Positions 8,854-39,385 of a stretch of 64,000 nt of DNA are shown here, piece by piece. The notes beneath the pieces were generated by a model. That model searched no databases. It was given only the letters and a program-made list of their open reading frames with translations, and was not told where the DNA came from. A program made the translations under genes and the position numbers. The stretch spans positions 1-64,000 of the forward strand of contig QPMI01000475.1 of assembly GCA_004431415.1 (NCBI GenBank), in the 5' to 3' direction. This DNA is from Cyanophora paradoxa CCMP329. Its lineage: Eukaryota; Plantae; Glaucophyta. How positions within the stretch are numbered: position 1 is the stretch's first letter; every line of letters begins with the position of its first letter.

Positions 8854-9587
8854 ATGGGTGAATATAATCGAGTTCAACTTCCAATATATTCCCTTGGATC
8901 CCCTGCAATGCACTTTCGCCAGCATGAAGTTAATGATGAGGTTCGTGGTTTAGAATCCACAGAGAGACCCAATTCCAATGGTAACTCCTTTGATAAAAAT
9001 TCGATTATTCGAGTTAAAGAGCTGAGAGCTGATAAGAATTCAGGTGTGGTTAAAACAACTCGACTTCTTGTCACAAATGCTAACTTCTTTCAGCCTACTA
9101 ATGGAGGTCCTGATGCTTACAGTGTTGATCTGAAAGCCCTTGATTATGATAAAAACACTGCTGCTGTAACTGTGAGATCAGGAGGAGCATTTATTGGTGG
9201 TGGCTGCAGAGTTTCAGGTCAACTTTCATCCTCAATTTCGTATAATGATGTCCCAGATACTCTTGAACAAAATGTAGAGAACCCACAACGAATTCGATTA
9301 TATATACCAGTTGCACAACAGCCAGTTATTCAATTTTACCAAGGTTATACTGTCACACTTGAAAACTCTGAATTGATTGAAGGAACCAAAAGAGTAATGA
9401 GAGGGCTGGTCATTCCTTCTGCAATGCTTTCTTTATGTAGAGCCAACAATAACCAGCCAGGTCACAGATACAATTTCAGTGTTCAGGGATATGATCATTT
9501 TGGCACAGGGTTCTGTGTTTATAATAACAATTTCACCTATGATCTGTTTGTTACAGATATTGGAAAATATACAATTACAGTTATGGG
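8854..9587 (+). pseudogene. 5' part of a spike-family gene disrupted by the inner element
   Basis: MGEYNRVQLP... is homologous to 35106..35948; the frame continues at 39274. Confidence 0.9.
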
Positions 9588-9694
9588 ACACATAAATAAA
9601 AACAAATTTAAATCCCTCGCTCTATCGCTCAATTCGCGCTTCGCGCTCATTTCGCTCTGTCGCTCAGGATTTAAATTTGTTTTTATTTATGTGT
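9588..9694. other. Terminal hairpin: 28-bp perfect stem with 51-nt TCGC-rich loop
   Basis: ACACATAAATAAAAACAAATTTAAATCC at 9588-9615 and its reverse complement at 9667-9694; mirrored at 39161-39267. Confidence 0.92.
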
Positions 9695-10048
9695 AAATTA
9701 ATCGAAAATATTTAAAAAATAAATCAAAATTTTTAATAAAATCAATTAAATTTAAATAAATTCGATTAAATTAATTGGTATAATATCAATTAAATTATGA
9801 TTTTATGAAATTTATATAAATTTTTGATAAATTACGTATTTCTCGATTGATTTAATGATATAAACGCGATTAATTTGTATTTAAATGAAAAATACGTATT
9901 TTGCGATTGATATAAACGCGATTAATTTGTATTTTATGCAAAATCGATATAATCTCGATTGAGGGAACATAAATTTATGATATAATCAATCACGATTGAA
10001 GTAGTCCACCTCCCATTCTATCGTAAAACGCAAAAATTCACACAGAGT

Positions 10049-10700
10049 TGCATTACGTCCAATTAAACAATCGATGAGATTGCGGCGTATTTTGTTGGAA
10101 GAGATGGTTACTGCATTATGTCCAATTAAACAATCGATGAAATATCGGATGAAAATAATTCACTCGTTACGGCATTATGTCCAATTAAACAATCGTTGAG
10201 ATTGCGGGAAACAAAAATGACCCCAGAGTTGCATTATGTCCAATTAAACAATCGATGAAATATCGGATGAAAATAATTCACTCGTTACTGCATTATGTCC
10301 AATTAAACAATCGATGAGATTGCGGCGTATTTTGTTGGAAGGGATGGTTACTGCATTATGTCCAATTAAACAATCGATGAGATTGCGGCGTATTTTGTTG
10401 GAAGGGATGGTTACTGCATTATGTCCAATTAAACAATCGATGAAATATCGGATGAAAATAATTCACTCGTTACTGCATTATGTCCAATTAAACAATCGAT
10501 GAGATTGCGGCGTATTTTGTTGGAAGGGATGGTTACTGCATTATGTCCAATTAAACAATTGATGAGATTGCGGTGTATTTTGTTGGATTAGATGGTTACT
10601 GCATTATGTCCAATTAAACAATCGATGAGATTCGGGTAAGATTTTTACTGTATCAAAATTGACCCCAGAGTTGCATTATGTCCAATTAAACAATTGATAA
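10049..10700 (+). repeat. Array of 11 conserved 29-bp repeats with 30-43-bp variable spacers (in left TIR)
   Basis: TGCATTATGTCCAATTAAACAATCGATGA at 10049, 10112, 10171, 10230, 10289, 10352, 10415, 10474, 10537, 10600 and 10672. Confidence 0.92.
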
Positions 10701-10758
10701 GATTGGATTCTGTTGTTTACTGTAAAAACATTGTATCTTAGGTGTATCAATCTCAATT

Positions 10759-11114
10759 AATCGAGGGTAACAGAGGTAACGGATTTTTCCCAACCTCTCC
10801 CCTAAGATCGAGATTTTCAAAAAGTTGCGCAAAATCCGTTACCTCTGTTACCCTCGATTAAATCCGTTACCTCAATTAAAATCTGTTACCCTTACTGAAA
10901 ATAAGAATGAATCTGTTACCCTTACCATAATAAGTAATGAGTTCTTGAATAATTAATCTTTGTTTAATGATAAACAATTGAGGGTAACAGAGGTAACGGA
11001 TTTTTCCCAACCTTTCCCTAAGATCGAGATTTTCAAAAAGTTGCGCAAAATCCGTTACCTCTGTTACCCTTACTGAAAATAAGAATAAATCTGTTACCTT
11101 TGTTATCTGTTACC
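10759..11114. promoter_or_regulatory. GGTAAC(A/G)GA iteron hairpins (putative origin elements) in left TIR
   Basis: Two inverted-repeat cassettes (10759-10859, 10981-11071) plus extra TGTTACC copies; the same cassette occurs at 20314-20414. Confidence 0.55.
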
Positions 11115-11365
11115 ATTTATAGTAAGAAAACAATAAATTCTTTGTTTTATAAGTAAGATTAACTCGGAAATCGCGCTGCTATCTGCTTCTCCGCTTTCTC
11201 CAACCCTGAAAAGATCTCTGTTATTCTCTCATCTATCAATTTAGATATTACGGAGGTCTTACTTTCAAAAAAATGATGCTCGTGGGCAACCCAAAATGAT
11301 TTAAGGAAGAAGCGACAGTATAGAGTAAACCGGGTAAAAGATTTTCTCAGACGTAATTCAGTGTC

Positions 11366-11983
11366 ATGGCGTATCTCTTCGAAGGTGAGCCGATCTTCTC
11401 GGTTCCGATTGCTGAAATGCGATTTGGTGTGAAGGATATTCTTGATCTTGCTGAAACTATTGAGGTTTTGCATCGAAAGATTGGAACATACTCTTATCCT
11501 GGAATGGATCAAATGGTTTGTTTTGGTTATTTTCGGAGAAATTCGGATCGGATTTGTGCGAGAACTCGCGATGATCGGTTCTTCTTTAATCATGTGAATT
11601 ATAATGATCATGGTAAGTTTAGCCATCTTAATGAAGTGCGTAATGCTGAACTTGATTTCATCGTTGTTGTTAATTTTCATGATCTTCTTTTCAACACTAC
11701 AAAGACTCACGATGACGTAATTAATGCAATTGGGATATGCTATGGACAAGAAGAACATCGTGAACGTTACTATTTCCACATTCCAAGAGATCTTCGTGCT
11801 TATCATGCTAAGTTTGAAGAGCATGGATGGAAGATTGTGAACCGAGCGACTCTACGTAAATACCTTAAACAAAATGGCGCTCGTTGGGTTCGCGAAAACA
11901 ACAGATGGTATACAGAGGATCAGAATGGTGTTGTCGCTGATATCTTCAAACCATATATCCCAATAGTTAATCGTATCCAATAG
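11366..11983 (+). CDS. Hypothetical protein (205 aa)
   Basis: ATG-initiated ORF with virus-like codon use; no recognised motif. Confidence 0.65.
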   Translation: MAYLFEGEPIFSVPIAEMRFGVKDILDLAETIEVLHRKIGTYSYPGMDQMVCFGYFRRNSDRICARTRDDRFFFNHVNYNDHGKFSHLNEVRNAELDFIVVVNFHDLLFNTTKTHDDVINAIGICYGQEEHRERYYFHIPRDLRAYHAKFEEHGWKIVNRATLRKYLKQNGARWVRENNRWYTEDQNGVVADIFKPYIPIVNRIQ

Positions 11984-12869
11984 CTACAAACTCCAACTGA
12001 AACGAATTATCGATACCATTCATATCTACAAGATCACCAAAATAATCACGAAACTCAACTGTTAATTCACGAATAACAAGGTTTTTGTCTGTTATTTTTA
12101 TGTATTCACCATGCTCTCCGCTATGGTAAACATACTTCCCGATGTCCTGACTCAATTGTAATCGCAAGATCGCGCCTTGATTCTGCGGTTGCGATTTCGG
12201 GACTATATTGTGGTTCGATGCAAAAGAAGAGAGTTCCTTGATATGCATATACAAGTATTGCTCAGCGTTCATATCCGCCATCTTTGGACTTGTTGCTTTA
12301 TGTTGCAACGGCACCGGATCTGCACCATCAAACGTTATTCCCCATTGTGGGTGATTAGGTGTTATTGGTCTTCCTGCATAGGATAAGTAATTCTCAGGAG
12401 CAAATACAGACCTGTTATCTTCTAAATTATGTTGCTGGCTTACCAATAATGTAGAACTCAGACCAAGTAGTTTGGCGATTCTATTGTTTGACGCTGCTAT
12501 TTCAAATGGAACGCTGCTATAAAATTCTAACTTGTATGTCGTTGGATTGTAGTAGATCTTAAATAATATATTTTCAGTAACCGCAAAGTTTAAACCATAA
12601 TTATATGGTTGTGTCACTCCAAAATGCCCTTGGTTTACATAACCACTCGGTAATGGAAACAGTTGCTGATTAAGAGAAACACCGTCAATATTGTAACGAA
12701 TCATAATATAATCGGTTCCAATCGAATTATAGATGCTGTTGGGAATCTCTGCATACAAAATACGACACTGTCGCGGTCTGGTTATTGGTGTGGTAAGTGA
12801 GACCTTGTAAGCGTTTTCGTTTTGTCCATCTAATCGATCTCTACTATCGACATTGACAAGCCGAATCAT
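11967..12869 (-). CDS. Minor capsid (penton)-like protein 1
   Basis: VDSRDR...IPNSIYN and LTVEFRDYFGDLVDMNGIDNSFQLEF motifs. Confidence 0.78.
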   Translation of the reverse strand: MIRLVNVDSRDRLDGQNENAYKVSLTTPITRPRQCRILYAEIPNSIYNSIGTDYIMIRYNIDGVSLNQQLFPLPSGYVNQGHFGVTQPYNYGLNFAVTENILFKIYYNPTTYKLEFYSSVPFEIAASNNRIAKLLGLSSTLLVSQQHNLEDNRSVFAPENYLSYAGRPITPNHPQWGITFDGADPVPLQHKATSPKMADMNAEQYLYMHIKELSSFASNHNIVPKSQPQNQGAILRLQLSQDIGKYVYHSGEHGEYIKITDKNLVIRELTVEFRDYFGDLVDMNGIDNSFQLEFVAIGYD

Positions 12870-12897
12870 TTTATTATATGGTTATAGATAAAAGAAG

Positions 12898-13902
12898 ATG
12901 CCTGTGGAATACGTTGAAGTGTCTTCCTTCAAAACGCTACCTAATCTGGATGCTCCAACATCTCGGTTTGTTGCGGATCTCCCAAAGACGTATGAGAATG
13001 TAAGAGCGGTTCGCCTTGTCTCCGCTGAATTCTATAACTCCATCCCGCTCATTAGTGGTGAAACAGAACCTGGGGATGCAACAATAGAGGATGCCTTTAT
13101 TATCAATTTCAGCCAAAAGTCCACATCCACCGGTGCAAATGCTCCTGAGATTCTTTATGATAGTTGGCGTTCTATTAGACCTGGTGCAGGTCTAAAAACC
13201 CCAATCAATACTCATCAGCAACTCGTTGCCCGAATCAATAACCGTTTTGAGAATCTCTCGCCTCCTTCTGCAATTCGCTGTGGTTGGGATGTAACCCAAA
13301 AAAAAGTTATCTTTTATGCTCCTGTGGAGTTCTATATTTGCTTCTCATATGCAAAAGATCCTTCTGTTTCTGCAATCGAGAAAGCGCTACGACATGCTCG
13401 AATCTTGGGTTTGGATGCTGGACGCTGGGGAAACAAGTTTATTAAATCACAAGTCTATGGAACAGATACAAGCTCCGTTTTTACAGGTGCAAACGTAAAT
13501 GGTATTATCTCAACATTCCCCACAGAGACCTGCAAAGATAACGTCTTTTTCGTGAGAGTAAAAGAACTGGGTGACCTCGTCCAATGTGCCGATGGTCTCC
13601 TAACTGGATACTTCCATAAACTTATGGTTCAAGATAGAGAATTCGCGGAACACGTTGTTTACAATTCGACCGAAGCAAATCCGCTGTATAAATACTATAA
13701 TAAGAAACTATCACTATCGCAATTCTCGGTAGATATAGTGAATGCTCAAAATGAATTAATTGATTTCGAGGGGCAACCTGTGCATCTGACATTCGAAATC
13801 CGTTATGGTGATGAACCCGCCGGTGATCCCATTTATGAATATTTCAAAATGAGAATGAGAGAGACCCACCCCTTCTATCCAAATATTGCTGGATTCGCGT
13901 AA
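12898..13902 (+). CDS. Minor capsid (penton)-like protein 2
   Basis: F..DLP..YENVRAVRLVSAEF and FSVDIVNAQNELIDFEGQPVHLTFEI match the same fold family; lies immediately upstream of the MCP. Confidence 0.7.
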   Translation: MPVEYVEVSSFKTLPNLDAPTSRFVADLPKTYENVRAVRLVSAEFYNSIPLISGETEPGDATIEDAFIINFSQKSTSTGANAPEILYDSWRSIRPGAGLKTPINTHQQLVARINNRFENLSPPSAIRCGWDVTQKKVIFYAPVEFYICFSYAKDPSVSAIEKALRHARILGLDAGRWGNKFIKSQVYGTDTSSVFTGANVNGIISTFPTETCKDNVFFVRVKELGDLVQCADGLLTGYFHKLMVQDREFAEHVVYNSTEANPLYKYYNKKLSLSQFSVDIVNAQNELIDFEGQPVHLTFEIRYGDEPAGDPIYEYFKMRMRETHPFYPNIAGFA

Positions 13903-13956: not shown

Positions 13957-15354
13957 ATGGATGTTACCTCGACCCTTCAACGTCTTTCTCTGAAAGAGGC
14001 GCTAACAACGCCCGAGGAAGCCAAAGCGTTCTTCCTCGATAACTCGCTTATGCTTGGTCTTGAATCAAAGACGAAACCCGTTCTCGTTACTGTTAGTCCC
14101 TCGACAACCTATGAAAACAATGTAGGTCAACGCGTTTCTTTCAAACTTCCCCGCTACAACTTTGTTGGTAAAATCGAACTCGCTTTCGACCTTCCCGAAC
14201 TAACGGCTTTTGAAGGTGATACCGACCTGGTGCGAAATGGTTACACCCGTCCCATCGGTGCGCTTGTAGAGCGTCTTGAATTCTCGTATGGATCGTATAC
14301 CTACCACGTCCCAAGCGATTTTCTTGCGATTTTCCCACTGGTCTACTATTCTGAGGATCAGCTGGCGAAAAAGAAGCGTTCAATGGGAATGCTTCATGGA
14401 ATTCCCGCTCACGGAACCAACCGTAAAGGTGGCGCTTTCTTCGTTGAAATTCCGGTGCCGTGGTTGAACCACTACCTACCTCTTGGCGCTCTGAGCGGTG
14501 AAGCCGTAATCACTGTTTGGTTCAAAGAAGCTAACAAGGGATATCTTGAAACTTCTTATGGCGGTCGCGCTCTTCCGGTTGTGACAACCGCTGCGGATCA
14601 AACCGCAAATGACGGTCTCGGAAGCGCTACTGGTGTAACTCTTGCTAATGTCGGTCAAAACATCACCACTGGCGGTATTACTGGGTTCGAAGTTGCTGGA
14701 ACTGTTCCACCAATGACCCATTACATCTCCATTAAGTCTCCTCGTCTCTACATGCATGCTATTAACGTTTCTGATGAACTGTTCGCTACTGTTATTGAGA
14801 AGGTTAAGACCACGGGGATGGCTATTCCTGCTCTCGATATCGGTTTCGTTGATGCTATCGGTGTTGCTGCGAAAGGTAACACTCAACCCAACCGAATCAA
14901 TCTTAGCCAAATCTCTGGTCTGGTTTATGCTCTTCTTGTCTCTGTTCGCGATGCCGATGGTGTCGATACTTCCAATGGTTCTCACAGCGTTCTAAAAACG
15001 CTTGCGAACGCGAAGGATATCACGATGACCTGTGAGATTAACGGACAACGTCTTTACTCGACGGAGCCAATCCCGCTACTTAAAGGTGCGGAACTCATCG
15101 CCGATGCCTTCAAATGCTCGAATATGGACAAGGAAGCAAACCGTTACGTCCTTACTGGTCTTCCATTCTGTGTTGATGGTGAGAAGGCGATTCGCAACAT
15201 TGCCCAATCTGGATATGTTGATCTCACCAACTCGTCTTCATCATTCCTCACTCTATATCTTCCTGCTGATCGCACAATTACTGTTAACGTTCGCGCTCTC
15301 ATGCATTCGTTCATTATTGTCGATAAGGACGGAATTCGCCGCATTAATCTCTAA
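13957..15354 (+). CDS. Double-jelly-roll major capsid protein (465 aa)
   Basis: Size, position between minor capsid and ATPase genes, NCLDV/PLV-like motifs (GQRVSFKLPR, IELAFDLPEL, YLPLGAL..EAVITVWF, SGYVDL) and strongly biased codon use. Confidence 0.8.
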   Translation: MDVTSTLQRLSLKEALTTPEEAKAFFLDNSLMLGLESKTKPVLVTVSPSTTYENNVGQRVSFKLPRYNFVGKIELAFDLPELTAFEGDTDLVRNGYTRPIGALVERLEFSYGSYTYHVPSDFLAIFPLVYYSEDQLAKKKRSMGMLHGIPAHGTNRKGGAFFVEIPVPWLNHYLPLGALSGEAVITVWFKEANKGYLETSYGGRALPVVTTAADQTANDGLGSATGVTLANVGQNITTGGITGFEVAGTVPPMTHYISIKSPRLYMHAINVSDELFATVIEKVKTTGMAIPALDIGFVDAIGVAAKGNTQPNRINLSQISGLVYALLVSVRDADGVDTSNGSHSVLKTLANAKDITMTCEINGQRLYSTEPIPLLKGAELIADAFKCSNMDKEANRYVLTGLPFCVDGEKAIRNIAQSGYVDLTNSSSSFLTLYLPADRTITVNVRALMHSFIIVDKDGIRRINL

Positions 15355-15415: not shown

Positions 15416-16198
15416 ATGTCTGACGTTCCCGAATTTAATGCTGCTGAGATGATTAAACCCCCTTTTCGCGTATTAGCAATCGGAAAAAGCGCGACGGGCA
15501 AGTCAGAAGCGGTGAAGTATTGGCTAAAACAACTTCACGATGCGAAAAAGTTAGATGTTGTTCTTGTTATAAGTGGGACGAGTTTCAATCATTTCTGGAA
15601 TGATGTTGCTACATTACAGCTCGGTAAATGGGATGCGCCTTACATTTCTAAACTTCTCGATGAAAGACAAGAGAAAATAGAGAAAGGAGAACCTGTAAAT
15701 CAACTGTTAGTTTTGCTCGATGATTTAATAGATAATGAGTTAGTCGACCTCACCCGTGATAAAATCATTGGTTCTTTGTATTCCCGTGGTCGCCACTCGA
15801 ACATATCGATTGTCTGTATCACACAGAAACTGCGTAAGGTTTCTTCAACCATTCGCGTCAATTCAGATTATGCAATGTTCCTAAGTGCCGCCAATCGCAA
15901 AGAACTGGAAGCCATTGAAGAAGAATACAATATCATGCGGGATAAAGACGCTTTCTATAAGATGTTTGAGGAATACGTTCACTCCTATCAGTTTCTCATT
16001 TGGAGTTCTGCGAATTATTCGGTGGAATACTATGTTGATAAAGCGGAACTCGTTAAAGACTTTAAGTTTCCTCGGTTCCATCGCAAACCAAAAAAGAAAG
16101 AAGATGAATTAAAACCGCCTGAGAAGGAGGAAGCGCCGAAAGAGATTAAAAGCGCTGTTCACACGAATAAGTTGATGCGATATAAGAGGGGATTGTAA
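15416..16198 (+). CDS. A32-like genome packaging ATPase
   Basis: Walker A GKSATGKS, Walker B LLVLLDD, and A32 motifs SRGRHSNIS and ITQ...IRVNSDY. True start is probably the ATG at 15416. Confidence 0.92.
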   Translation: MSDVPEFNAAEMIKPPFRVLAIGKSATGKSEAVKYWLKQLHDAKKLDVVLVISGTSFNHFWNDVATLQLGKWDAPYISKLLDERQEKIEKGEPVNQLLVLLDDLIDNELVDLTRDKIIGSLYSRGRHSNISIVCITQKLRKVSSTIRVNSDYAMFLSAANRKELEAIEEEYNIMRDKDAFYKMFEEYVHSYQFLIWSSANYSVEYYVDKAELVKDFKFPRFHRKPKKKEDELKPPEKEEAPKEIKSAVHTNKLMRYKRGL

Positions 16199-23600: not shown

Positions 23601-23981
23601 GAGTATCTCGATAGGAGCAATTACGATAAATCCCATCCTCTTGTGAGTATCAAAAACCGCATGGTTCCTGGTAAATATAAGAATGAGTTTCCAAATGCAA
23701 AGATCATGGAGTATGTGGGTCTGAGATCGAAACTCTATGCTTTCAGAACTGAGACCAACGAAAGAGTAAAGATGTCGGGGACTTCCTCGAAAGAGGTTCA
23801 CTTTGACGATTTTAAGAGATGTCTGTTTGAAGGCATCATAAAAACAGTATCAGTAACAAACAAGCGAAGGCAAGACCACAACTTATATGACTTGGAGAGC
23901 AGAAGGGTCGCTCTAAACCAACTCGATAGCAAACGGAAGATATCAGCCGACGGCATTCACAGCATTCCATTTGGTCTTTAA
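20700..23981 (+). CDS. Polinton-type (protein-primed family) DNA polymerase B with Zn-finger and Endo VII-like domain
   Basis: CFKYAIL, C2H2 (CETC...LHVEANRC), RDHCHQSG..GKACRNCN, motif A DANNLYGYAL, motif B KLMNNAIYGK, motif C DTDS, and LRSKLY. Confidence 0.93.
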   Translation: MPRQTNRLIKEKKNEILGLLGTLLVTGEITEAEYDREAAILDRRPRLGQLTEIANDLYNRMQRMEEFMDEGQRLGAIDPDIEDGQAMNQAYSWLTYRARNEVVVDAIEFLERIAPSLPQRIRTRLDQLRAVKVRLTFVCKFTKVGNPRIYITKFIYSDYFVITRSRNIDTEVRKALQKMQEEMTQVDSYRLEKIEILRGVIMSYAPVGGCFFATPEWIASKKATVNVKNIDGQDCFKYAILAYLHRKDINKHKSNEPSQYRRWLNELNFEGIQFPVACDAEVIDRFEELNPELSINIYGADNAKECFYPLHQSSNPRRKTKINLLLIENTEDDRGHYITIMSFSRLLKTTFDKACDGRIYYCETCLSRFRTQEKLDLHVEANRCIDWRESKGKCPKAGSVIEFGLQHLRKTVWLPVICYVKVEDHSVAIDAQRSKREIKAVSLRVVMGDEVRAYHFEGADPLGSLFATLQDIRPEIVETLFRNIPMHPLTDDQKAEYKVTKHCYICSQRFTHENFPVRDHCHQSGDFIGKACRNCNLHRRISKQTKVAIVVDHMDECGHGIFRKIAQQDDKLRVEILSKNFDQYLSLQWGMWKFIDASHFMDFQSVDVGDLMRKFEAFRKLAFSQYGLDPAHYVSAPGLSWDAMLKHTKVKIELIDDVEKYEFVERAIRGGFATMPTRYAKVENPNDHIVLLDANNLYGYALSQPLPIGDYRWEDITEALKEVEGRSAFIEVDLEYPTTFEDHYDFPLIVNKEVITAEMLGDYQRKLLDLTGEKISKDPKLTATFTPKNKYVIARPLLNYIVKKGVILKKIHKVLSFATSPFMRSYIGLNTLLRHESTNHFESDFFKLMNNAIYGKCLESCRGRSTVKIANSEKLCKKYAASPLIKATNVLNENAVAFEMYSKHVNLDKPVAIGAFVLDFAKLHNYRFFYDVVRKKWETAKLLFHDTDSFCLFLKTNNLNEDMKEIGEYLDRSNYDKSHPLVSIKNRMVPGKYKNEFPNAKIMEYVGLRSKLYAFRTETNERVKMSGTSSKEVHFDDFKRCLFEGIIKTVSVTNKRRQDHNLYDLESRRVALNQLDSKRKISADGIHSIPFGL

Positions 23982-27702: not shown

Positions 27703-30700
27703 ATGAGTTTCAATTATCCAGCAAATTTACAAACAATATCAGGAAGTGGTGGTAAAACAAACCCTAAACATGTGAATTTCGATAATATCACCATCAAAGG
27801 ATCGGCTTCTATCGATCAGAGCGCCGATAAACCCAGTAAGACGCATTCCAGAATTCATGCTTTATCACTGAATCAAACGGATCCCGATAAAGAAGATGTT
27901 AGCATTGCTTTCAGTTTGGGTAATGTTAAAAAAAATGAAGTTGCCGAAATTAAAGCAACAAGAAGACAACGAAAACTTAAAACAAGTAAAACCCATCCCG
28001 ATATTCCGACACGTTTCGATAGCGGGCGATTAGTATTTAATGTTCAGGATGAGAAAGGTAAACAAAATACAGGTCTCAGAATTTATAATGAAGGCAGCAC
28101 ACCAATTGTCGAGTCATCAGAAATCTTACAAATAGGTTCTTTTCCTAATGCAAATCAAGTATGTATCACAAATGATGTTTACCCAAAAGACATAACTTAT
28201 GATTTTGCGAAAAATGAACCTTTTGGATTCTTTACTCCGAAAGACGTTCATGAAAAAAAACCATCAATAACCATAAATAGTAGTCCCAGTCAACCAGTTG
28301 CTATACATTTACATCCCGATCTTGTCGAAATGGATCGACATTTACTACCTTTGTTTTCAAACACAAAAGATCTTGGTATTAGAACCCGACAGTGGCGAAA
28401 TATTCACGGTAGCAACGTGTATGCAAATGGCGAGAAACTTGTTAGTGAGAAAACGATAAGAGAAATATTTGAACATTACGGACCTGTTCCAGTTCCATTT
28501 CCGTTACCATGGGATCCACCAGATCTTACACCAAAAAAACAACCCGGAAGAGAATACACAGCTGATGAAACGGTTGCGTTTGGTCAACATTTAGTTAGTT
28601 GGGAAAAAGTTTATAATAAACCAGTTTTTAAAGATTACAAACCGCCCGCTGAGGAACTCTTAGCACCAGACATTAATGTTATACCTCTTGAACATAAAGA
28701 ATGTGAAGACGTGGAAGAATTACCCGATGGATTTGATCCTAACCATATGTTATATGATCGTTACGAACCTTACGACGAACAACTTTTACCACATGGATTA
28801 GATCCACCAAACATAGATTACGAACAGCCACATATACCAGATGAAGAGTTATTACCAGATGGATTACAGCCGGGATTTTTCGATTTTACCGTAGATTGGA
28901 GGGATATTATTAACAAACCCGAAACATTTCCACCAGATCCACACGAACACGAATGGGAAGACATTTTAAACAAACCGGAAAGATTTCCGCCCACAGAGCA
29001 TCGCCACCATTGGGACGAAATTGATGGAATACCAGGAGAGTTTCCGCCGGAAGACCATTTACATATTTGGAGTGAAGTAAGACAACAGCCCACTTTTGCA
29101 TCAGCAGGTAATGTATTATTAGGAGATATTAACAATGGTGTGAGTCTCTACCAAAACATAGACACACCAGAAAGATTACAATTAAACGATTATTACGTAA
29201 ATCGCAGGGGAATAGATGCAGGCACCACAATGGAAGGCGAATTATATATTAGACCACCTACAAGGGATGTAATATTACCACTTGGTGGAGGTATTGAAAT
29301 AAAAGACACAAAACCGGGAATCTATCTTACCAATTACTACGCAGATGATGTCCCGATGACAGGAGGTTTATTATCTCTACCATCTGATCCAGCAAATTAT
29401 GATGATAAAAACGCAGCAATCCAAATTAATGTGACTAATGTAAGCGATTTAGACGGATCAAGACCAAAATTAATATTTAGCCGTGAGCAACTCGCAGCAG
29501 AAACACTTTTAGGAGATCGTGACGATTATAAACAATGTGAGGTTGCATGGATCAAAACAAAGTATAATGGTGGAGTTCCAGAGGGTCTTTTAGAAATCAA
29601 TCAAAGAGCAAGCGCCAAAAACATACACAATGAAGATATATCGAGAGTGGTAACGGAAGATTACCTAACGGCTGTAATTCTCGTTAATTTCGTAACTCTT
29701 GCGATGCTTGGAAATTATGTAACAAAACCTGAACTTGCGGTGGAATTATCAAAATATCTCCCGCTTGTTGGTGGGACAATCACAGGAGATCTTACGGTTA
29801 ATAGTAATATTTACAGTAGCAACATAGAGACCAGCAACCTAAAAGTGAATGGAATTCTTACGGTTGGTTCATGTAATTTTAATACCATAAATCAACTTTA
29901 CAGAGAATGGTATGATGTCCCAGCAAGCTTTGATCCAGCATTAAATATCTCAAATTGCATTTTTGCTTGGAAGGCATCAGGAGAACCAGGTCAATTAGCA
30001 ACGTATACAACTATAATAAGTAGAGTCCCAAATTCAGTTGTTCCAGACATGTTTATCTCCGGAGCCAGTTCCTATTACACCAATCCCCAAATCAACAACC
30101 AAATTAGTGTTTCAAGCCCAACAGGCACTTTTTATGCATATACCTCTGCTACAAGGACTATTGATTTTTCAAATGGGCTTACATTTTTCTTTGTGGGAAA
30201 ATATCATCCAACTACCTCTTCTATGCAAGTTCATTTGAGACTTTACAGAAGCGCCTTTCCATCACGATATTGTTATTATGGGGCAACATCTTCTACTGCT
30301 ATTGGAATGAACCAGTTTACTATTAATGGAGTATCCCAAACCCGCCCAGTTATTACGGTTCCTTCTTTAATAAATACATGGTATTACACTGACCAAACAA
30401 TTACTCCCAACAGCTACACAGTCGGGTTAAATGGAGTAGATATTCAAACACTTGTAGGAACGAATTATCTACCAGATAATACTGTCAATCATTTCGGATT
30501 TGGTAATATTGCGAATGGTGGTATTTCCGAGTTGATTGTTTTCAATAGGGCTTTGACAACTTCTGAAAAGAATGCTGTGAGGTATTACATTCAACAAAAA
30601 TATGGATTCACTCATACCCAGACTCTGAATATTTACAGAGGATTAAAAATAACCTCACCTGATACTGTAATAGATTACCTTACAGTTACAAGCAATGCAA

Positions 30701-33700
30701 ATTTACCACATCATCCAACCTCTAATGTGGTTCAAGGTTGGATTCAAAATCACACTCACACAAAAGCCCAGATTACAGATTTTGCCCATACTCACACAAA
30801 AGACCAAATAACAGATTTCGCCCATACTCACACAAAAGACCAAATAACAGATTTCGCCCATACTCACACAAAAGACCAAATAACAGATTTCGCCCATACT
30901 CACACAAAAGACCAAATAACAGATTTCGCCCATACTCACACAAAAGATCAGATCACAGATTTCGCCCATACTCACACCAAAGATCAGATCACAGATTTCG
31001 CCCATACTCATTTATGGGAGCATATCACAAATCCTCCATTAACCTTCCCACCTGATTCACACACTCATGATTACTCAACAATAACCAATAGCAACCACAG
31101 ACACCCTTGGAGCGAAATAGACGAAAAACCACGTTTTGCATCGACAGGTGATTTAGTAAATGGTGACGGATTTTATGGGGTCAGTTTCTACCAAAGTGAT
31201 ACCATCGCTGAAAGATTACAATTAAGTGAATACTATTTACACCGAAAAGGAATTGAAGCAGGCACCACAATGGAAGGAGAATTATACATTAAACAACCAA
31301 CAAGAACAACATTAGTAGCAGCAGGTGGCGATGCATTAATAGACACCAAACCGGGTATTTATCTTACAAGTTACTATAATGCGGATATCCCGTTAACAAC
31401 AGGATTACCACCGCTACCATCTGATCCAGTGGGTTATAGTCATAAAGACGCCATTTTACAAGTAAACGTTACAGATGTAAGCGCAACTGATGGTTCACGT
31501 CCAAAAATTATATTTAGTCGCTCGAAATTCAATTACGTCCCACTTGTGGGACAACCATATGATGATCATGGTAAATGTGAGATGGCGTGGATTAAAACGA
31601 CAACAGGTGGCGCCTTAGAAGTTAATCAGAGAATGGCGGCGAAAAACTTACACAATGAGACCCTTTCAGGTGTTGTAACAGATGATTACATGCAAAGCAA
31701 AAAATATGTAGATGATACACATACTCACACCAAAGATCAAATCACAGATTTTGCCCATACTCACACCAAAGATCAGATCACAGATTTCGCCCATTCTCAT
31801 TTATGGAGCATATCACAAATCCTCCATTAACCTTTCCTCCGGATTCACACACTCACGATTACTTGCCTCTCACAGGAGGAACAATTTCATCAAATCTTAC
31901 GATTTCATCCAATTTGAATGTTTTAGGAAAAATTCAAATTGGAGACAAAAATACAAACATTGATGTATACTATGATGCACCCTATTATCCTGTTACTTCT
32001 AATACAGACCCTGCTTCTACCATACCAAATTGCCTCTTAACAATAAGATTAGATGGTGTCCCTGTTGGAATAAACATCAGTCATGCCTTCATTGCAAATA
32101 GAGCAACTTTGGCGAGTCCCTTTATTTCCGGAGTTACCTTTCCATGGTGTGGATACAACACAATAACTCAATTGAGATCTGATTACAATAACCGAAACAT
32201 TGCACAACAACCTACTTATTCATATACAAGCCGGGAATTTGGGATGCCGTATCCCGTAACTGTGGATTGGTCAAAAGGTATCACCATCTTCTTTGCAGGT
32301 TCTTATAGATTTTGGGGACCGTGGGTAGATCTCTTAAATTTTAGTTCACCAGATGGAACTAATAAAGTATCCTTTGGGACAACAGGTAGCAGTATGGGTA
32401 TACATTCTTATACAAGCAATGGTGTGACTTACCCAGCAGCACACTTAAATTATCCCACATCGTATTCTGAGTTGTCGCCGAATCATTGGGACTTTACAGT
32501 TTCTTCAAATGTCTGCACTTTCGGATTTAACGGACAAGATTTAGGCACAGTCATTACAGAAGTGGATTATCTTCCACCTTCCACTTTTAGTAGGATGGGT
32601 GTTGCCTATTTCATTACGGCAGTAGGGGAATATATTATATTCAACAGAGCATTGACATTTGATGAAAGGCAAAAAGTGAGATATTATATGCAAGATTATT
32701 TTGGCTTTCCAAAAAAGCAAACAATCGTTATTCCTGATAATCTACGCATTTCTGCTGAAAATGTTCATATTAGAAATTTAATCGTTTCTTCAAATGCAAG
32801 CATTCCAAACTATACCACATCAAATGTGGTTCAAGGTTGGATACAGAACCACACACCTGCGTGGTCAAATATCACAGACAAACCATTAACATTTGCTCCT
32901 GATACTCACACTCACACAAAGTCTCAAATCACAGATTTTGACCATACTCACACAAAAGCGCAAATAACAGATTTTGACCATAAACATGTTAAAGCAGATA
33001 TTACAGATTTTGACCATACTCACACAAAAGCGCAAATAACAGATTTCGCACACAAACATGTCAAAGCAGATATTACAGATTTTGACCATGAACATACAAA
33101 AGATCAAATAACAGATTTCGCACATAGGCACGATTGGGACGAAATAGATGAAAAACCACGTTTTGCATCGACAGGTGATATTGTTAATGGTGACGGATTT
33201 TATGGGTGAGTTTCTATCAGAGTGACACCATCGCTGAAAGATTACAATTAAGTGATTTCTATTTACACCGAAAGGGAATTGAAGCAGGCACCACAATGGA
33301 AGGAGAATTATACATTAAACAACCAACAAGAACAACATTAGTAGCAGCAGGTGGTGATACATTGATTGATACCAAACCGGGTATTTATCTTACAAGTTAC
33401 TATAATGCGGATATCCCAGTTACAGGAGGATTACCACCGCTACCATCTGATCCAGCAACTTATGATGACAAAGACGCCATTTTGCAAGTGAATGTAACAG
33501 ATGTAAGCGCTACTGATGGTTCACGTCCAAAAATTATATTTAGTCGCTCGAAATTCAATTATGTCCCACTTGCGGGACAACCAAGAGACGATCACGGGAA
33601 ATGTGAGATGTCGTGGATTAAAACGACAACAGGTGGCGCCTTAGAAGTTAATCAGAGAATGGCGGCTAAAAACCTGCACAACGAGACCCTTTCAGGTGTG

Positions 33701-35056
33701 GTCACAGACGATTACCTGCAAAGCAAAAATTATATAGATGAAACCGAATTGGGTGTTGCACTTCAAACTCACAGTCATGCATGGAACAATATCACAGATA
33801 AACCTTTAACATTTCCACCATCCCTACATACACATTTATGGAGCCATATTACGGATAGACCCACCTTAGCAACAGTTGCAACGACAGGAAATTACGATGA
33901 TCTGATAAATAAACCAACATACACATCTCCAATTAACTTTGATGCCACAAATGGTCTTTCCACAGATCGCACAGGTGATTGGAGATTTTTCACATTTATA
34001 TCTCCTTATTCAGGAGCAAACACATGGGCTTCTGGTGATGAAGATTGTAGTGGCTACAAGATGTTATGGACTGTCCCCGCGGGAATGAAGACATGCTATA
34101 TCTTCTATGTGTGTCAATACAATAGTAGATACTTTGATGTTGTAGGAGTTTATCCATCAACCAATTCCTATACTCTTTCGAGAGTAAATGCTTATTCTCC
34201 TGGTGCTGATCCGAGTGTAGAGTTTAGGCAATATGTCGGGGTGAATTGTGAAGGGCTGAGTAAAGTGGGTGTTCAAGGAAGAATAGGAAGAATTTACCTT
34301 GTGGGTCTTGTTGGTTGGAGTAAAAACCCTGCTGTATCATCACAAAGTGGCTTCTTGCATTGGGACAACATTTACGGGAAACCAACAGCTTCCACAACTG
34401 TCGGACCTCACTCTCACACTAAATCAGATATCACCGACTTTGCCCATACTCACACAAAGGCAAATATTACAGATTTTGCCCACACTCACACTAAATCAGA
34501 AATCACAGATTTGCCTTCTTTTGATCCATTCACAGCCAATACGATCACAGCAAATAATACTATGTATGTAGGATCGGGTTCAATAGTAGCCCCTGCATCA
34601 CCAACAAATGAAGAAACTTGGTTCTTCCACAATTCAGCAAACTTTTATGATAAAACCCTACTCTGTCGCGGAAATGCTTATGCAAGAGCATTTTATGCAA
34701 TGAATTCGGGAACCACCAATACAATTAGCCAACTTCCAACTTGGTCTGATATAGAAAGACGTTTCAAATCAGGAAAATACGAAGCTACAAGTGGTGTGAT
34801 AAGCGCGGGTCAGAGAACACAGCATGCATATGTTTTAAATTGGAATCCTGCTTTTTACACACAAACACCTGTTGTAAATGCCACTCTTCAAGGAACTCCT
34901 GCAACAAACCCCGGGGATGTAGATTTTAGAATTGGAATCTCAAACTCCACATCTACATATACAACAATTTATGTGACATTCATAGCATCCCCTACTCTAT
35001 CTGAAAGTCGTAGTATCACTTGCACAATCCATTGGACAGCATATGGAATACCATAA
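27703..35056 (+). CDS. Giant modular fibre/spike protein (~2,450 aa) split into three ORFs by two 1-nt deletions
   Basis: ORFs 27703..31830, 31803..33209 and 33206..35056 join when one G is restored near 31806 and near 33206, judged from intact repeat copies at 31011 and 31171. Contains HxH repeats and two LamG-like modules (ELIVFNRALT). Confidence 0.8.
30751..31010 (+). repeat. 36-bp coding tandem repeat (HTHTKDQITDFA x7)
   Basis: Near-perfect nucleotide repeats; further blocks near 31718, 32908 and 34408. Confidence 0.9.
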
Positions 35057-35105
35057 TTAACTCAAAAAGCGCTTTATTTTTCTTTCCTTCTTAGTAAAAG
35101 AAGCA

Positions 35106-35948
35106 ATGGGCGAATATAATCGAGTCCAATTACCAGTTTACGCATTGGGTGCGCCCGCGGTTCACTTTCGACAACACGAGGTTGCCGACGAAATTCGCGG
35201 TGTGGAATCGACGGAACGCGCTAACTCCGCGAATGCATTTGATAAAAACAGCATGATACGTGTTAAAGAACTACGCGCCGACAAGAATTCGGGAGTGGTT
35301 AAAACGACTCAACTTCTTGTAACAAATGCGAATTTTAACGCGGGAATCGGGCAACCTGATGCATGGGGTGTGGATATTAGAACGTTAGATTTTGACGGAG
35401 AACGTGCCGCCGCTGTTGTCCGATCAGGAGGCGCTGTTATTGGTGGCGGTTGTCGTGTGTCGGGTATGCTTGCATCCTCCGTTGCTGTTACCGATATTCC
35501 CGATACTCTACCTGAGCATGCGGAGAATCCGCAACGTATCCGTATGTATACCCCATGTGGAGATTATCCGTATGTGTTTGGAATGGTCAGAGTTGGGGTA
35601 GATAACGTAAATGCAACACAACCCGATGGAATTTTGGGAAATTGGTTATTACCAAATATTGCTATTCCTAAATCTATTGAGTCTATATGTCGTTCACAAA
35701 ATGGTATTATCGGTCCAGCTTATACTTTCTTTGTTCAGGGAATCGGACGCGGTAGAGGTTGGGTGGAGTTTGATAATCAAAACCCCGCTACGTTTAATGT
35801 TTGGACAACAGAAGTAGGAGGTTATGATATTCTCATTTTCGGAATGCGAACAGATCCAGCCGCTGTGGCGGCTACACGTGGTCTCAATCCCGATAACAAC
35901 CTAAATAACTTCTACGATGATCCGTTCCCAGGTGATCCCACACCATAA
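35106..35948 (+). CDS. Spike-family structural protein (intact homolog of the disrupted target gene)
   Basis: VKELRADKNSGVVKTT...RSGGA anchor motif; aligns with 8854-9587 plus 39274-39385. Confidence 0.75.
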   Translation: MGEYNRVQLPVYALGAPAVHFRQHEVADEIRGVESTERANSANAFDKNSMIRVKELRADKNSGVVKTTQLLVTNANFNAGIGQPDAWGVDIRTLDFDGERAAAVVRSGGAVIGGGCRVSGMLASSVAVTDIPDTLPEHAENPQRIRMYTPCGDYPYVFGMVRVGVDNVNATQPDGILGNWLLPNIAIPKSIESICRSQNGIIGPAYTFFVQGIGRGRGWVEFDNQNPATFNVWTTEVGGYDILIFGMRTDPAAVAATRGLNPDNNLNNFYDDPFPGDPTP

Positions 35949-35967: not shown

Positions 35968-36813
35968 ATGGCGGCACCCGCTCCACCTGAACGTATCTTA
36001 ACAGCGCAACTATCATTAGCCGCGCCCGCAAATCACGTATTACAACATGCCGTTATCGATAATGTCGATGGTTTGGAGTCTACGGAACTCGCACCTACTC
36101 TTAATACTTTCGGTGATACACATAAATTGCGACTCAAAGAGTTAAGATGTGACAAAAATAACGGAATTGTGAAAACTACGAAACTTCTTGTTACAAATGC
36201 AAACTTTAACGCTTTTTATGGAGATCCTGACAGTTATAATGATGATAACAAGGTAACAAACTTTGCTTATGAATCGAGAAACGGAGCGATTAAATGTAGA
36301 TCCGGAGGCGCTTACATTGGGGACGGACTAAGAGTTGGTGGTATCATCGGAGCGCCTCTTCTTGTAAATGACCAACCGAATCCGGATGATGAGAACACAA
36401 GAATTAGAACGTATTGCCCAGGTATGAATGAACCTTACCTAATTAAGATTTATACAATCGTTATTAGTTTACAGACAGCGGTAGCCGATGTTTTAGAACC
36501 GTTGGGAAATCATTATAGATATAGAGACACGATACCAGAGGACATTTACGCATTATGTAGAAGAACCGACGGAGCAAGACCACGCCTTACGATACATATT
36601 ATCCCCATAGATAATTTCGGTCAAGCGTTTCACTCAATACCTCTTTTAGATACACAAGATAACCAATTTATAATAAGAGCTACACAACTTGGAAATTATC
36701 GAGTCATTATGTATGCCGAAAGAAACGACGCAATCGCAACAGCTAACCGATTCGGTCAATATCTAAATACCAATCTATACAATCCCGTCGGCGGTAGCGA
36801 TCCGCTACCATAA
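35968..36813 (+). CDS. Spike-family structural protein paralog
   Basis: LKELRCDKNNGIVKTT...RSGGAYIG motif; homolog at 39409-40239. Confidence 0.75.
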   Translation: MAAPAPPERILTAQLSLAAPANHVLQHAVIDNVDGLESTELAPTLNTFGDTHKLRLKELRCDKNNGIVKTTKLLVTNANFNAFYGDPDSYNDDNKVTNFAYESRNGAIKCRSGGAYIGDGLRVGGIIGAPLLVNDQPNPDDENTRIRTYCPGMNEPYLIKIYTIVISLQTAVADVLEPLGNHYRYRDTIPEDIYALCRRTDGARPRLTIHIIPIDNFGQAFHSIPLLDTQDNQFIIRATQLGNYRVIMYAERNDAIATANRFGQYLNTNLYNPVGGSDPLP

Positions 36814-36834
36814 ATCTACGGTATATATAGAGGA

Positions 36835-37107
36835 ATGGATGAAAAAACAAAACGATTTATTGAGTCTGCGATTATGGTTCATGGACTTGATAAATTCGAT
36901 TATACCGAGACTGTCTATAAGAAGGCACAAGAGAAGGTATCCGTGAGATGCCTACAATGTAATAAAGTCTTTCAGACTTACGGATTTAATCACATTAAGG
37001 GATCGGGTTGCCGACAGTGTTCTAAGAAACACTCTCATGCATACAGAAAAAAGACTACATGGGGAATAGTTATAGAAGAGAGACCGATTATGTTGTATTT
37101 TGATTAA
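36835..37107 (+). CDS. Small Zn-ribbon protein (DUF723-like repeat unit)
   Basis: FI..A..VHG.DKFDY....Y.....KV...CLQC...H..GSGC..C resembles the DNA-binding repeats of NCLDV/phage homing-type endonucleases; no nuclease domain. Confidence 0.65.
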   Translation: MDEKTKRFIESAIMVHGLDKFDYTETVYKKAQEKVSVRCLQCNKVFQTYGFNHIKGSGCRQCSKKHSHAYRKKTTWGIVIEERPIMLYFD

Positions 37108-37293
37108 AGTTTCAAAAGAGAAATTACCATCTTCCCACATTTACCTTTGGTGATTATACAGGTATCAAAGCAACTTGGACATGTTTTATGATAATATACC
37201 ATTATGATATCGACCAACTCATACGGAAACACTTTCGCTAAGATGGTTCGCATCCTACTAATTTTGTTTTTAATTTTTCTATATAATTCATAA

Positions 37294-37695
37294 ATGAACT
37301 ATCATCGGGGATTTCACGTGATGTTGGATTACAAGTTCAATCATCCATTGATGGTGGGATTGGACAACATAGACACCACAACGAAGTGGTTAATGCAATT
37401 TTTTCAATCTATTATTCAAGAGCAAGGTATCCGAGTTGTTCACAAGCATTGCGAGATTTTCGATGGTGGTGTTTCGCCACCCGGTTTTGCGATGGTATTA
37501 CTCCTCGATGAGAGCCATTTAACCGCTCATTGTTATTCAGACCAGGGAATGTTGGCGATTGATATATTCACTTGCGGATTGGAAGCGCAAAGTAAGACCT
37601 CCGTAATATCTAAATTGATAGATGAGAGAATAACAGAGATCTTTTCAGGGTTGGAGAAAGCGGAGAAGCAGATAGCAGCGCGATTTCCGAGTTAA
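37294..37695 (+). CDS. speD: S-adenosylmethionine decarboxylase proenzyme (short prokaryotic/viral type)
   Basis: G.H...D, F..GVSPPG.A.VLLLDESHLTAHCY (pyruvoyl E|SH cleavage site) and AIDIFTCG. Confidence 0.88.
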   Translation: MNYHRGFHVMLDYKFNHPLMVGLDNIDTTTKWLMQFFQSIIQEQGIRVVHKHCEIFDGGVSPPGFAMVLLLDESHLTAHCYSDQGMLAIDIFTCGLEAQSKTSVISKLIDERITEIFSGLEKAEKQIAARFPS

Positions 37696-39267
37696 TCTTA
37701 CTTATAAAACAAAGAATTTATTGTTTTCTTACTATAAATGGTAACAGATAACAAAGGTAACAGATTTATTCTTATTTTCAGTAAGGGTAACAGAGGTAAC
37801 GGATTTTGCGCAACTTTTTGAAAATCTCGATCTTAGGGGAAAGGTTGGGAAAAATCCGTTACCTCTGTTACCCTCAATTGTTTATCATTAAACAAAGATT
37901 AATTATTCAAGAACTCATTACTTATTATGGTAAGGGTAACAGATTCATTCTTATTTTCAGTAAGGGTAACAGATTTTAATTGAGGTAACGGATTTAATCG
38001 AGGGTAACAGAGGTAACGGATTTTGCGCAACTTTTTGAAAATCTCGATCTTAGGGGAGAGGTTGGGAAAAATCCGTTACCTCTGTTACCCTCGATTAATT
38101 GAGATTGATACACCTAAGATACAATGTTTTTACAGTAAAAAACAGAATCCAATCTTATCAATTGTTTAATTGGACATAATGCAACTCTGGGGTCAATTTT
38201 GATACAGTAAAAATCTTACCCGAATCTCATCGATTGTTTAATTGGACATAATGCAGTAACCATCTAATCCAACAAAATACACCGCAATCTCATCAATTGT
38301 TTAATTGGACATAATGCAGTAACCATCCCTTCCAACAAAATACGCCGCAATCTCATCGATTGTTTAATTGGACATAATGCAGTAACGAGTGAATTATTTT
38401 CATCCGATATTTCATCGATTGTTTAATTGGACATAATGCAGTAACCATCCCTTCCAACAAAATACGCCGCAATCTCATCGATTGTTTAATTGGACATAAT
38501 GCAGTAACCATCCCTTCCAACAAAATACGCCGCAATCTCATCGATTGTTTAATTGGACATAATGCAGTAACGAGTGAATTATTTTCATCCGATATTTCAT
38601 CGATTGTTTAATTGGACATAATGCAACTCTGGGGTCATTTTTGTTTCCCGCAATCTCAACGATTGTTTAATTGGACATAATGCCGTAACGAGTGAATTAT
38701 TTTCATCCGATATTTCATCGATTGTTTAATTGGACATAATGCAGTAACCATCTCTTCCAACAAAATACGCCGCAATCTCATCGATTGTTTAATTGGACGT
38801 AATGCAACTCTGTGTGAATTTTTGCGTTTTACGATAGAATGGGAGGTGGACTACTTCAATCGTGATTGATTATATCATAAATTTATGTTCCCTCAATCGA
38901 GATTATATCGATTTTGCATAAAATACAAATTAATCGCGTTTATATCAATCGCAAAATACGTATTTTTCATTTAAATACAAATTAATCGCGTTTATATCAT
39001 TAAATCAATCGAGAAATACGTAATTTATCAAAAATTTATATAAATTTCATAAAATCATAATTTAATTGATATTATACCAATTAATTTAATCGAATTTATT
39101 TAAATTTAATTGATTTTATTAAAAATTTTGATTTATTTTTTAAATATTTTCGATTAATTTACACATAAATAAAAACAAATTTAAATCCTGAGCGACAGAG
39201 CGAAATGAGCGCGAAGCGCGAATTGAGCGATAGAGCGAGGGATTTAAATTTGTTTTTATTTATGTGT
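37589..39267 (-). repeat. Right terminal inverted repeat of the inner element
   Basis: Mirror of 9588-11265, including the array (38155-38806) and terminal hairpin (39161-39267). Confidence 0.95.
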
Positions 39268-39273
39268 TATGGG

Positions 39274-39385
39274 TATCAGAACAGATATAGCTGCTGTCTC
39301 AGCTCTTAGAGGTGTTACTCCTGATACTCTTTCTCAAACAGGGTTTTACCAAGAGCCAGATGTAATTGATGACCCAACCCAATAA
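39274..39385 (+). pseudogene. 3' part of the disrupted spike-family gene of the outer element
   Basis: Removing the inner element and one TSD gives ...TVMG-IRTDIAAVSALRGVTPD...DPTQ*, matching FGMRTDPAAVAATRGLNPD...DPTP* of 35106..35948. Confidence 0.92.

What the first reader, a model, noticed from the sequence alone, without database searches (positions are those of the whole stretch)
8854..39385. Virus-in-virus: a complete PLV inserted into a structural gene of its own relative
Seen: TATGGG flanks both ends of 9588-39267. Excising the element restores an ORF (…TVMGIRTDIAAVSALRG…) homologous to a gene the inner element itself carries (35106-35948). Known: RVE integrases of Polintons/virophages make ~6-bp TSDs. 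Inference: relatives may preferentially target each other as a safe harbour or in competition, and the invader carries a complementing copy of the gene it destroys.
Basis: partly seen in the sequence, partly recalled or inferred. Interest (0 to 1): 0.85.

Follow-up and report, generated by a model that had tools for sequence, protein, structure and literature searches.

The report
Polinton-like virus nested in its relative
A 29.7-kb virus-like DNA element sits inside a gene of a related element, the uninterrupted gene is seen in public sequencing data, and the nesting is likely a chance landing in an abundant target, an arrangement already reported from another protist.

Summary
Element 9588-39267 has 1.68-kb terminal inverted repeats (1677 of 1678 aligned bases identical), is flanked by a 6-bp duplication TATGGG, and splits one reading frame of a related element in register. 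Contigs of both DNA runs laid on the right junction carry the uninterrupted site at about 15-28 times the depth of the host flank. So the target family is abundant and has intact alleles. No contig bridging the nested junctions was listed (tables were cut). The split gene is probably a short fibre or spike (weak fold evidence). Targeting and complementation are not supported. 73% of the visible outer element has a homologue in the inner one, so a 'replacement copy' is the default outcome. The head domains are only about 32% identical. The outer element itself interrupts a non-viral WD40 frame. Chance predicts a few nested copies in a genome with about 150 such elements. PLVs nested in other viral elements, with terminal palindromes, are already reported from Halocafeteria. 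Verdict: a clean new example of a known arrangement; targeting remains untested.

The parts
1..9587 (.). Outer (target) element, left arm as far as the window reaches: two minor-capsid-like genes, patatin-discoidin, PTR-repeat fibre, three short fibre-like paralogues
   Evidence: tblastn hits to inner proteins, best stretch per protein 40-90% identity; Pfam PTR and C1q; minor-capsid label is recalled from the N-terminal motif and position, not from a call
8854..9587 (+). Split gene, 5' part (244 codons + 2 nt); as assembled it reads on into the TIR to a stop at 9696
9582..9587 (.). Target-site duplication, left copy (TATGGG)
9588..11265 (.). Inner element left TIR (1,678 bp) with 63-bp repeat array
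9588..9694 (.). Terminal palindrome: 28-bp end arm, 51-bp loop, perfect inverted 28-bp arm
11967..13902 (.). Two divergently placed minor-capsid-like genes (11967-12869 minus, 12898-13902 plus)
   Evidence: ORFs; no Pfam/PHROG hit; label recalled
13957..15354 (+). Major capsid protein, probable double jelly-roll
   Evidence: one homologue P0001, 58%; low-confidence model (pLDDT 37) ranks PBCV-1, PR772, mavirus and PRD1 capsids near the top, all E>0.001
15419..16198 (+). A32-type packaging ATPase (ORF listed from 15104)
   Evidence: Pfam Pox_A32 E 1.8e-11
17855..20206 (+). Prim-Pol / D5-like primase-helicase
   Evidence: Pfam D5_N, DUF5906, Prim-Pol
20700..23981 (+). Family B DNA polymerase with endonuclease VII-like insert
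   Evidence: motifs DANNLY, KLxxNxxYGK, DTDS found; PHROG endonuclease VII; no Pfam or PDB sequence hit
24167..25567 (+). rve integrase, D-D(35)-E intact
   Evidence: Pfam rve E 2e-4, below cut-off; PHROG transposase E 5.5e-12; motifs
26097..27653 (-). Patatin-like phospholipase fused to discoidin (F5/8 C)
27703..35056 (+). Long PTR-repeat fibre region, three ORFs, probably one gene with two 1-nt frameshifts in G runs
   Evidence: PHROG tail-fibre hits; repeat-to-repeat comparison; not checked against reads
35106..35948 (+). Inner orthologue of the split gene; predicted C-terminal beta-sandwich head (residues about 151-250)
35968..37695 (+). Paralogue of the split gene, zinc-finger ORF, SAM decarboxylase (3' end inside the TIR); same order as in the outer element
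37589..39267 (.). Inner element right TIR
39268..39273 (.). Target-site duplication, right copy (TATGGG)
39274..39385 (+). Split gene, 3' part (1 nt + 36 codons + stop)
39409..42367 (.). Outer element right arm: paralogue, zinc finger, SAM decarboxylase, repeat-rich end region
42085..42367 (.). Outer terminal palindrome: 28-bp arms, 283 bp overall; ends in TATGTGT like the inner element
42368..43310 (-). WD40-repeat frame cut by the outer element's right end; depth equal to the host flank

Best explanation
A low-copy Polinton-like virus sits, bounded by a 6-bp duplication, inside a gene of a related and far more abundant element, and it likely got there by ordinary, largely sequence-blind integration through its own rve integrase. 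Shown: TIRs, duplication, in-frame split and the uninterrupted allele. Inferred: (1) The insertion is recent (TIRs 99.9% alike; the target copy differs from the deep empty-site contig at 2 of 212 bases). (2) The target was hit because its family offers a large, AT-rich target, and it was kept because an insertion there breaks no host gene. (3) The hit copy is likely dead as a virus: the last predicted strand and the tail of a probable fibre head are cut off, and more importantly the element grows by 29.7 kb, likely beyond what its capsid could package. The inner element keeps both ends and could likely still be mobilised. (4) The invader's homologue of the broken gene is a by-product of shared ancestry and gene order, not a rescue.
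For: TSD, TIR and frame. Empty site at depth 3357.8 vs host flank 120.7 (X1) and 1462.1 vs 100.1 (X4); single outer contigs reach 44-80 times the flank; inner TIR contigs about 4-5 times. 10 of 17 inner ORFs hit the visible outer element and cover 73% of it, against a coding share of 87%. The outer element's flank is a WD40 frame. Chance model: 156 elements covering an assumed 3.5% of a genome give about 2.7 nested cases; 50-80 elements at 1.2-2% give 0.3-0.8 (the 156 is the glaucophyte count in PMC12220804 Table S6, not shown to be this genome). No sequence-specific integration was found for EMALEs (PMC8547959, passages). Nesting of 5 PLVs and 9 virophages in other viral elements is reported (10.64898/2026.07.28.741278, section 8).
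Against: One event cannot separate chance from preference. If the inner family has only about 2-5 copies, the chance that one lands in a relative is 3-10% (post hoc, since the window was chosen for the nesting). No contig bridging either nested junction was among the listed rows. At 9853 and 9888 all listed depth in X1 and X2 carries another letter than the window; only X4 leaves room for the window's letters. The tool warns that contig depth is not a copy number. The 14 nested cases in Halocafeteria could themselves reflect a preference; the sections read give no test.
Confidence: 0.75

Rival explanations
1. Directed targeting: the integrase or a partner protein is steered to resident relatives (for example by shared promoter motifs or element-specific chromatin), as a safe harbour or to knock out a competitor.
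For: A probably low-copy family has one of its few copies inside a relative. The two elements share end motifs and an identical stretch upstream of the orthologous gene. Ngaro retrotransposons show that preference for endogenous virophages can evolve (91% of type 1; PMC8547959). Nesting is called frequent in Halocafeteria.
Against: The relative visible here sits in a WD40 frame at host-flank depth. Two further flanks behind the outer end in X15 differ from each other, and the one searched has no match in the window. Chance already predicts some nesting. EMALEs showed no sequence specificity and often hit host exons.
Confidence: 0.13
2. Selected complementation: the composite persists because the invader supplies the gene it broke, so the double element works as a unit.
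For: The inner orthologue is intact and 72% identical over the N-terminal 150 residues.
Against: The head is only 20 of 62 identical. Uninterrupted alleles are deep in the same runs. 73% of the visible target has a homologue in the invader anyway. A composite of over 42 kb exceeds the 14-40 kb range given for these viruses (PMC10120064).
Confidence: 0.04
3. Assembly artefact: two repeat families were joined by the assembler, or the interior between the TIRs is a mosaic of copies.
For: The region has uncorrected 1-bp deletions (14 of 17 tested lie in runs of 2 or more of the same base). No bridging contig was listed. Window-specific TIR letters lack listed support in X1 and X2. EVE assembly is known to be error-prone.
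Against: A misjoin would have to hit both element termini to the base, duplicate exactly 6 bases and resume the same codon of a sequence that exists uninterrupted in other data. A mosaic interior would leave the junctions real.
Confidence: 0.05
4. Homologous recombination or module exchange between relatives made the arrangement, not integration.
For: The elements are 66-77% identical in nucleotides over shared genes; mosaicism is common in this virus group (10.64898/2026.10.13.758929, passages).
Against: The junctions lie at the TIR termini, not in homologous sequence; both TIRs are complete and a duplication is present.
Confidence: 0.03

Closest known systems
   Same: Viral element inside a viral element (5 PLVs, 9 virophages); TIRs, TSDs, rve integrases; palindromes at the termini next to the TSD.
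   Different: The sections read do not describe an insertion into the orthologue of a gene the invader carries, or empty-site alleles. There the palindromes go mostly with non-pPolB replicases; here a family B polymerase and a primase-helicase are both present.
Endogenous PLVs of glaucophytes as tabulated in PMC12220804 (Table S6 and section 13 part 1 read)
   Same: 156 elements; none with a protease, 139 with A32, 85 with rve, 89 with lipase, 66 with SAM decarboxylase; only 2 capsids recognised by the study's models; discoidin, PTR repeats and one H-lectin tip noted. This matches the gene set here.
   Different: Nested elements discussed in the passages read are retrotransposons, not PLVs. 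Whether this very element is among the 156 was not examined.
Polintons / Mavericks (PMC8097293, passages)
   Same: Family B polymerase, rve integrase, ATPase, capsid genes, TIRs, 6-bp TSD.
   Different: No protease found; ends ACACATA instead of the (AG)3 or (AGT)2 motifs reported for vertebrate Mavericks; extra primase-helicase; larger (29.7 kb vs 12.7-24.6 kb) with large fibre genes.
EMALEs with nested Ngaro retrotransposons, Cafeteria burkhardae (PMC8547959, passages)
   Same: AT-rich endogenous viruses in a GC-rich host, rve integration with TSDs, nested parasitism.
   Different: There the nested invader is a retrotransposon with a shown preference; the EMALEs themselves showed no site specificity, and they are virophages.

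Membership tests
Polinton-like virus (inner element) | 14-40 kb element with TIRs | tested here: met
   29,680 bp, 1,678-bp TIRs
Polinton-like virus (inner element) | Double jelly-roll major capsid protein | tested here: inconclusive
   No Pfam, PHROG or PDB sequence hit; model pLDDT 37; top Foldseek rows are mostly DJR capsids but E>=0.014
Polinton-like virus (inner element) | A32-type packaging ATPase | tested here: met
   Pox_A32 E 1.8e-11
Polinton-like virus (inner element) | Minor capsid (penton) protein | tested here: inconclusive
   Two candidate ORFs beside the MCP without library hits; label recalled
Polinton-like virus (inner element) | Integrase (rve or tyrosine recombinase) with matching target signature | tested here: met
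   rve-type with D-D(35)-E and a 6-bp TSD
Polinton-like virus (inner element) | Replicase (pPolB and/or primase-helicase) | tested here: met
   D5/Prim-Pol hits; PolB motifs A, B, C present; protein priming itself not tested
Polinton-like virus (inner element) | Forms particles or is mobile today | not testable with these tools
   Only contigs were available
Polinton-like virus (outer element) | Own MCP, ATPase, replicase, integrase, second TIR and TSD | not testable with these tools
   Left part lies outside the window and no genome is held; 10 of 17 inner ORFs have homologues in the visible part
Polinton/Maverick sensu stricto | Adenovirus-type maturation protease | tested here: not met
   No protease hit among the 19 inner ORFs scanned against Pfam; a very divergent protease is not excluded
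Polinton/Maverick sensu stricto | pPolB plus rve integrase plus 6-bp TSD | tested here: met
   (polymerase assigned by motifs only)
Virophage (mavirus/Sputnik type) | Virophage-type MCP and cysteine protease | tested here: inconclusive
   No sequence hit to the mavirus MCP in PDB; only a weak fold row (E 0.056); no protease
Viral fibre/spike protein (split gene) | Conserved N-terminal anchor with exchangeable C-terminal receptor-binding head | tested here: inconclusive
   N-domain shared with 3 library proteins and 1 window paralogue that carry C1q heads; predicted head best matches tailspike RBD, H-type lectins and pyocin fibre tips at Z 5.1-6.0, below the tool's caution line of 8
Viral fibre/spike protein (split gene) | Trimer located on the virion | not tested
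   No complex prediction was obtained; needs proteomics or a structure

The most novel reading that the evidence does not exclude
These PLVs home in on resident relatives: a rare element uses its integrase to land in, and disable, copies of a dominant related family, making virus-versus-virus integration a form of competition inside the host genome.
Probability: 0.12. Interest if true: 0.75.

Novelty: new member of a known kind. Interest (0 to 1): 0.33.

Why it matters
As it stands it is a well-resolved example: it orders two related endogenous viruses in time and shows a young copy of an abundant family being knocked out by a relative. It also shows that the frameshifts that make such elements look decayed are at least partly assembly noise. 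If preference for relatives were shown, it would be a target-selection rule for rve-type viral integrases and a route by which related PLVs meet and swap modules. A genome with on the order of a hundred such elements makes that directly testable.

Tried and rejected
Whole-genome catalogue of insertion sites: no genome is held. Homologue searches: MCP gave one hit; the 5' part of the split gene none; viral contigs gave nothing for MCP or ATPase; the 28-bp end motif had no exact match in metagenome contigs. PDB sequence searches for MCP and polymerase were empty or chance-level. The Atlas gave no answer. The single-sequence MCP model was poor. Foldseek of the split-gene model on PDB gave nothing at E<=0.001; its BFVD hits (tail proteins, E to 1.5e-8) have high rmsd over a low-confidence N-half and were not relied on. 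No trimer prediction was obtained. No Rfam or tRNA hits. No RNA holder is listed; X15 may be DNA, so nothing is concluded on expression. My first idea, that the outer element was a decayed fossil, was dropped: the 12 shown single-base gaps in 1-10030 (9 rows not shown) and those at 39737, 39850 and 39863 are filled in run contigs. These contigs may come from sister copies. Eight literature searches found nesting reported, but no statistical test of PLV-into-PLV preference in the passages read; bioRxiv supplements could not be seen. Earlier scan notes held nothing on this genome or sequence.
Full report
Observation. The window holds about 42 kb of AT-rich DNA (GC 0.32-0.48) followed by host-like DNA that rises to about 0.7 GC. 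A repeat search found a long inverted repeat with arms starting at 9588 and ending at 39267. A gapped alignment gives TIRs of 1,678 bp with one mismatch and one 1-bp gap. TATGGG flanks both ends, and no other flank length from 3 to 11 is a direct repeat. The frame starting at 8854 has 244 codons and 2 bases before the element. The first base behind the right duplication completes that codon, and 36 further codons follow to a stop at 39385. The two parts, each compared alone, match inner gene 35106-35948: 53% over 249 aligned residues for the left part, and 17 of 33 for the right piece with 0 of 2000 shuffles reaching its score.

The inner element. It encodes a probable major capsid protein (one homologue, P0001, 58%; weak fold rows to PBCV-1, mavirus and PRD1 capsids from a poor model). 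It also encodes two minor-capsid-like ORFs (label recalled), an A32 ATPase, a Prim-Pol/D5 helicase, an rve integrase, a patatin-discoidin fusion and a SAM decarboxylase. A family B polymerase is recognised by motifs, and a long tail-fibre-like region is present. The integrase has D-D(35)-E. No protease was found. This gene set matches the glaucophyte row of Table S6 in PMC12220804 (156 elements, no protease, 85 rve, 89 lipases, 66 SAM decarboxylases; section 13 part 1). With the GC-rich flank and the EukProt source of P0001, this makes an algal, probably glaucophyte, host likely. That is an inference; the source of the window was not determined.

The outer element. 10 of 17 inner ORFs have homologues in the 12.7 kb of outer sequence visible here, in largely the same order. 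The seven without are the core genes and two small ORFs, which would lie left of the window. Its right end at 42367 carries the same terminal letters as the inner element, and both ends are palindromes with perfect 28-bp arms. Behind it lies a WD40 frame, covered by one contig at depth 120.7 in X1 and 100.1 in X4. The outer genes show many 1-bp deletions. Run contigs fill these, and 14 of 17 tested lie in same-base runs of two or more. They are probably assembly errors, though sister copies could supply the filled form. PMC10120064 describes such artefacts (passages).

Independent data. Of 24 listed runs, 14 DNA runs hold 0.71-0.77 of the words of 39100-44000; one of them may be the window's own source. 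Three DNA runs and one possible RNA run were laid on the left side, and two DNA runs plus the same possible RNA run on the right. In X1 and X4 a contig lies on 9376-9587, stops at the duplication, and on the other side brings loose letters equal to 9550-9579 up to 39266. The uninterrupted site therefore exists, at about 28 and 15 times the flank depth. Single outer contigs reach 44-80 times, and inner TIR contigs about 4-5 times. The tool warns that depth is no copy number, but the contrast suggests an abundant target family and a rare invader. Against my reading: no contig bridging a nested junction was among the rows shown, and in X1 and X2 all listed depth at 9853 and 9888 carries another letter than the window.

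The split gene. A profile search of 1.84 billion proteins returned 7 hits. One is a full-length relative, five share the N-terminal 120 residues, and one is an unrelated repeat protein. Three of the five, and the window paralogue at 7516, end in a C1q domain (one below Pfam's cut-off). The model of the inner orthologue is confident only for about residues 160-250, a beta-sandwich. Its best matches are a cyanophage tailspike receptor-binding domain, H-type lectins and pyocin or phage fibre tips at Z 5.1-6.0, which the tool counts as inconclusive. A short fibre or spike is the likeliest role. The insertion falls in the last predicted strand of that head.

Mechanism. Shown: the boundaries, duplication, in-frame split and empty allele. 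From established knowledge: rve integrases of PLVs and Polintons leave 5-6 bp duplications (PMC12220804, PMC8547959). Inferred: a recent integrase-mediated insertion into a young member of an abundant family, kept because no host gene is hit. The carried homologue needs no special explanation. 73% of the visible target, against 87% coding, has a homologue in the invader; the heads are only 20 of 62 identical; and intact alleles abound. A simple model gives 0.3-0.8 nested cases for 50-80 elements at 1.2-2% of a genome, and about 2.7 for 156 elements at an assumed 3.5%. For a family of 3-5 copies it gives only a 3-10% chance. One event thus neither needs nor excludes targeting. The one other site seen in full, the outer element's own, is non-viral.

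Comparison and novelty. PLVs and virophages nested in other viral elements (5 and 9 cases) and terminal palindromes are described for Halocafeteria seosinensis (10.64898/2026.07.28.741278; passages and sections 7-8). Retrotransposons nested in PLVs or virophages are described in PMC8547959, PMC12220804 and PMC12747079 (passages). PMC11131425, PMC8097293 and 10.64898/2026.10.13.758929 (passages) added nothing on virus-in-virus nesting. In eight searches I found no test of preference, and bioRxiv supplements were not seen. The finding is a new, cleanly resolved member of a known kind. Interest is 0.33; the targeting reading has probability about 0.12 and would deserve 0.75.

Noticed in passing
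window 9588-9694, 39161-39267 and 42085-42367: Both elements end in a palindrome with perfect 28-bp arms (loops of 51 and 227 bp) and share the first 7 terminal bases; arm length is the same although the sequences differ. Here they accompany a family B polymerase, whereas the Halocafeteria preprint links palindromes mostly to non-pPolB replicases.
   Followed up: partly
outer element: Outer-family contig depth relative to the host flank is about twice as high in X1 as in X4 (28 vs 15; 11 vs 5), while the inner TIR changes less (5.3 vs 3.9). Could be copy-number change or free replicating DNA, or library bias.
   Followed up: no
window 42368-43310 (minus): The outer element's end cuts a WD40 frame of 47-50% GC, unlike the roughly 70% GC host genes nearby; it has one frame change near 42900. 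It may be a host gene or another foreign element.
   Followed up: partly
window 27703-35056: Three fibre ORFs look like one gene of about 2,450 residues broken by two 1-nt losses in G runs, with an internally repeated block about 2 kb long; not checked against reads.
   Followed up: partly
window 8822-8856 and 35074-35108; also 3474, 13939, 41270: The roughly 35 bases upstream of the split gene and of its inner orthologue are identical although the genes are about 70% alike; TAGTAAAAG also precedes the MCP and the outer fibre gene and is absent from the host part, a candidate late promoter motif.
   Followed up: partly
window 20700-23981: The polymerase keeps motifs A-C and an endonuclease VII-like insert, but the proofreading motifs look degenerate by eye (recalled consensus); no Pfam hit.
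   Followed up: no
window 8854-9696: As assembled, the broken gene reads on through the terminal palindrome to give a 280-residue frame, almost the length of the intact one; probably coincidence.
   Followed up: no
window 1-1903 vs 11967-13902: The two minor-capsid-like genes are inverted relative to the patatin-fibre block in the outer element compared with the inner one, so the core modules of the two elements are arranged differently.
   Followed up: no
window 11159-11265 / 37589-37695: The inner TIR has taken in the 3' end of the SAM decarboxylase gene, so an inverted copy lies in the left TIR.
   Followed up: no
run X15, behind 42368 and 42371: Two further flanks follow the outer family's end, pointing to other insertion sites; one was searched in the window without a match.
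   Followed up: partly
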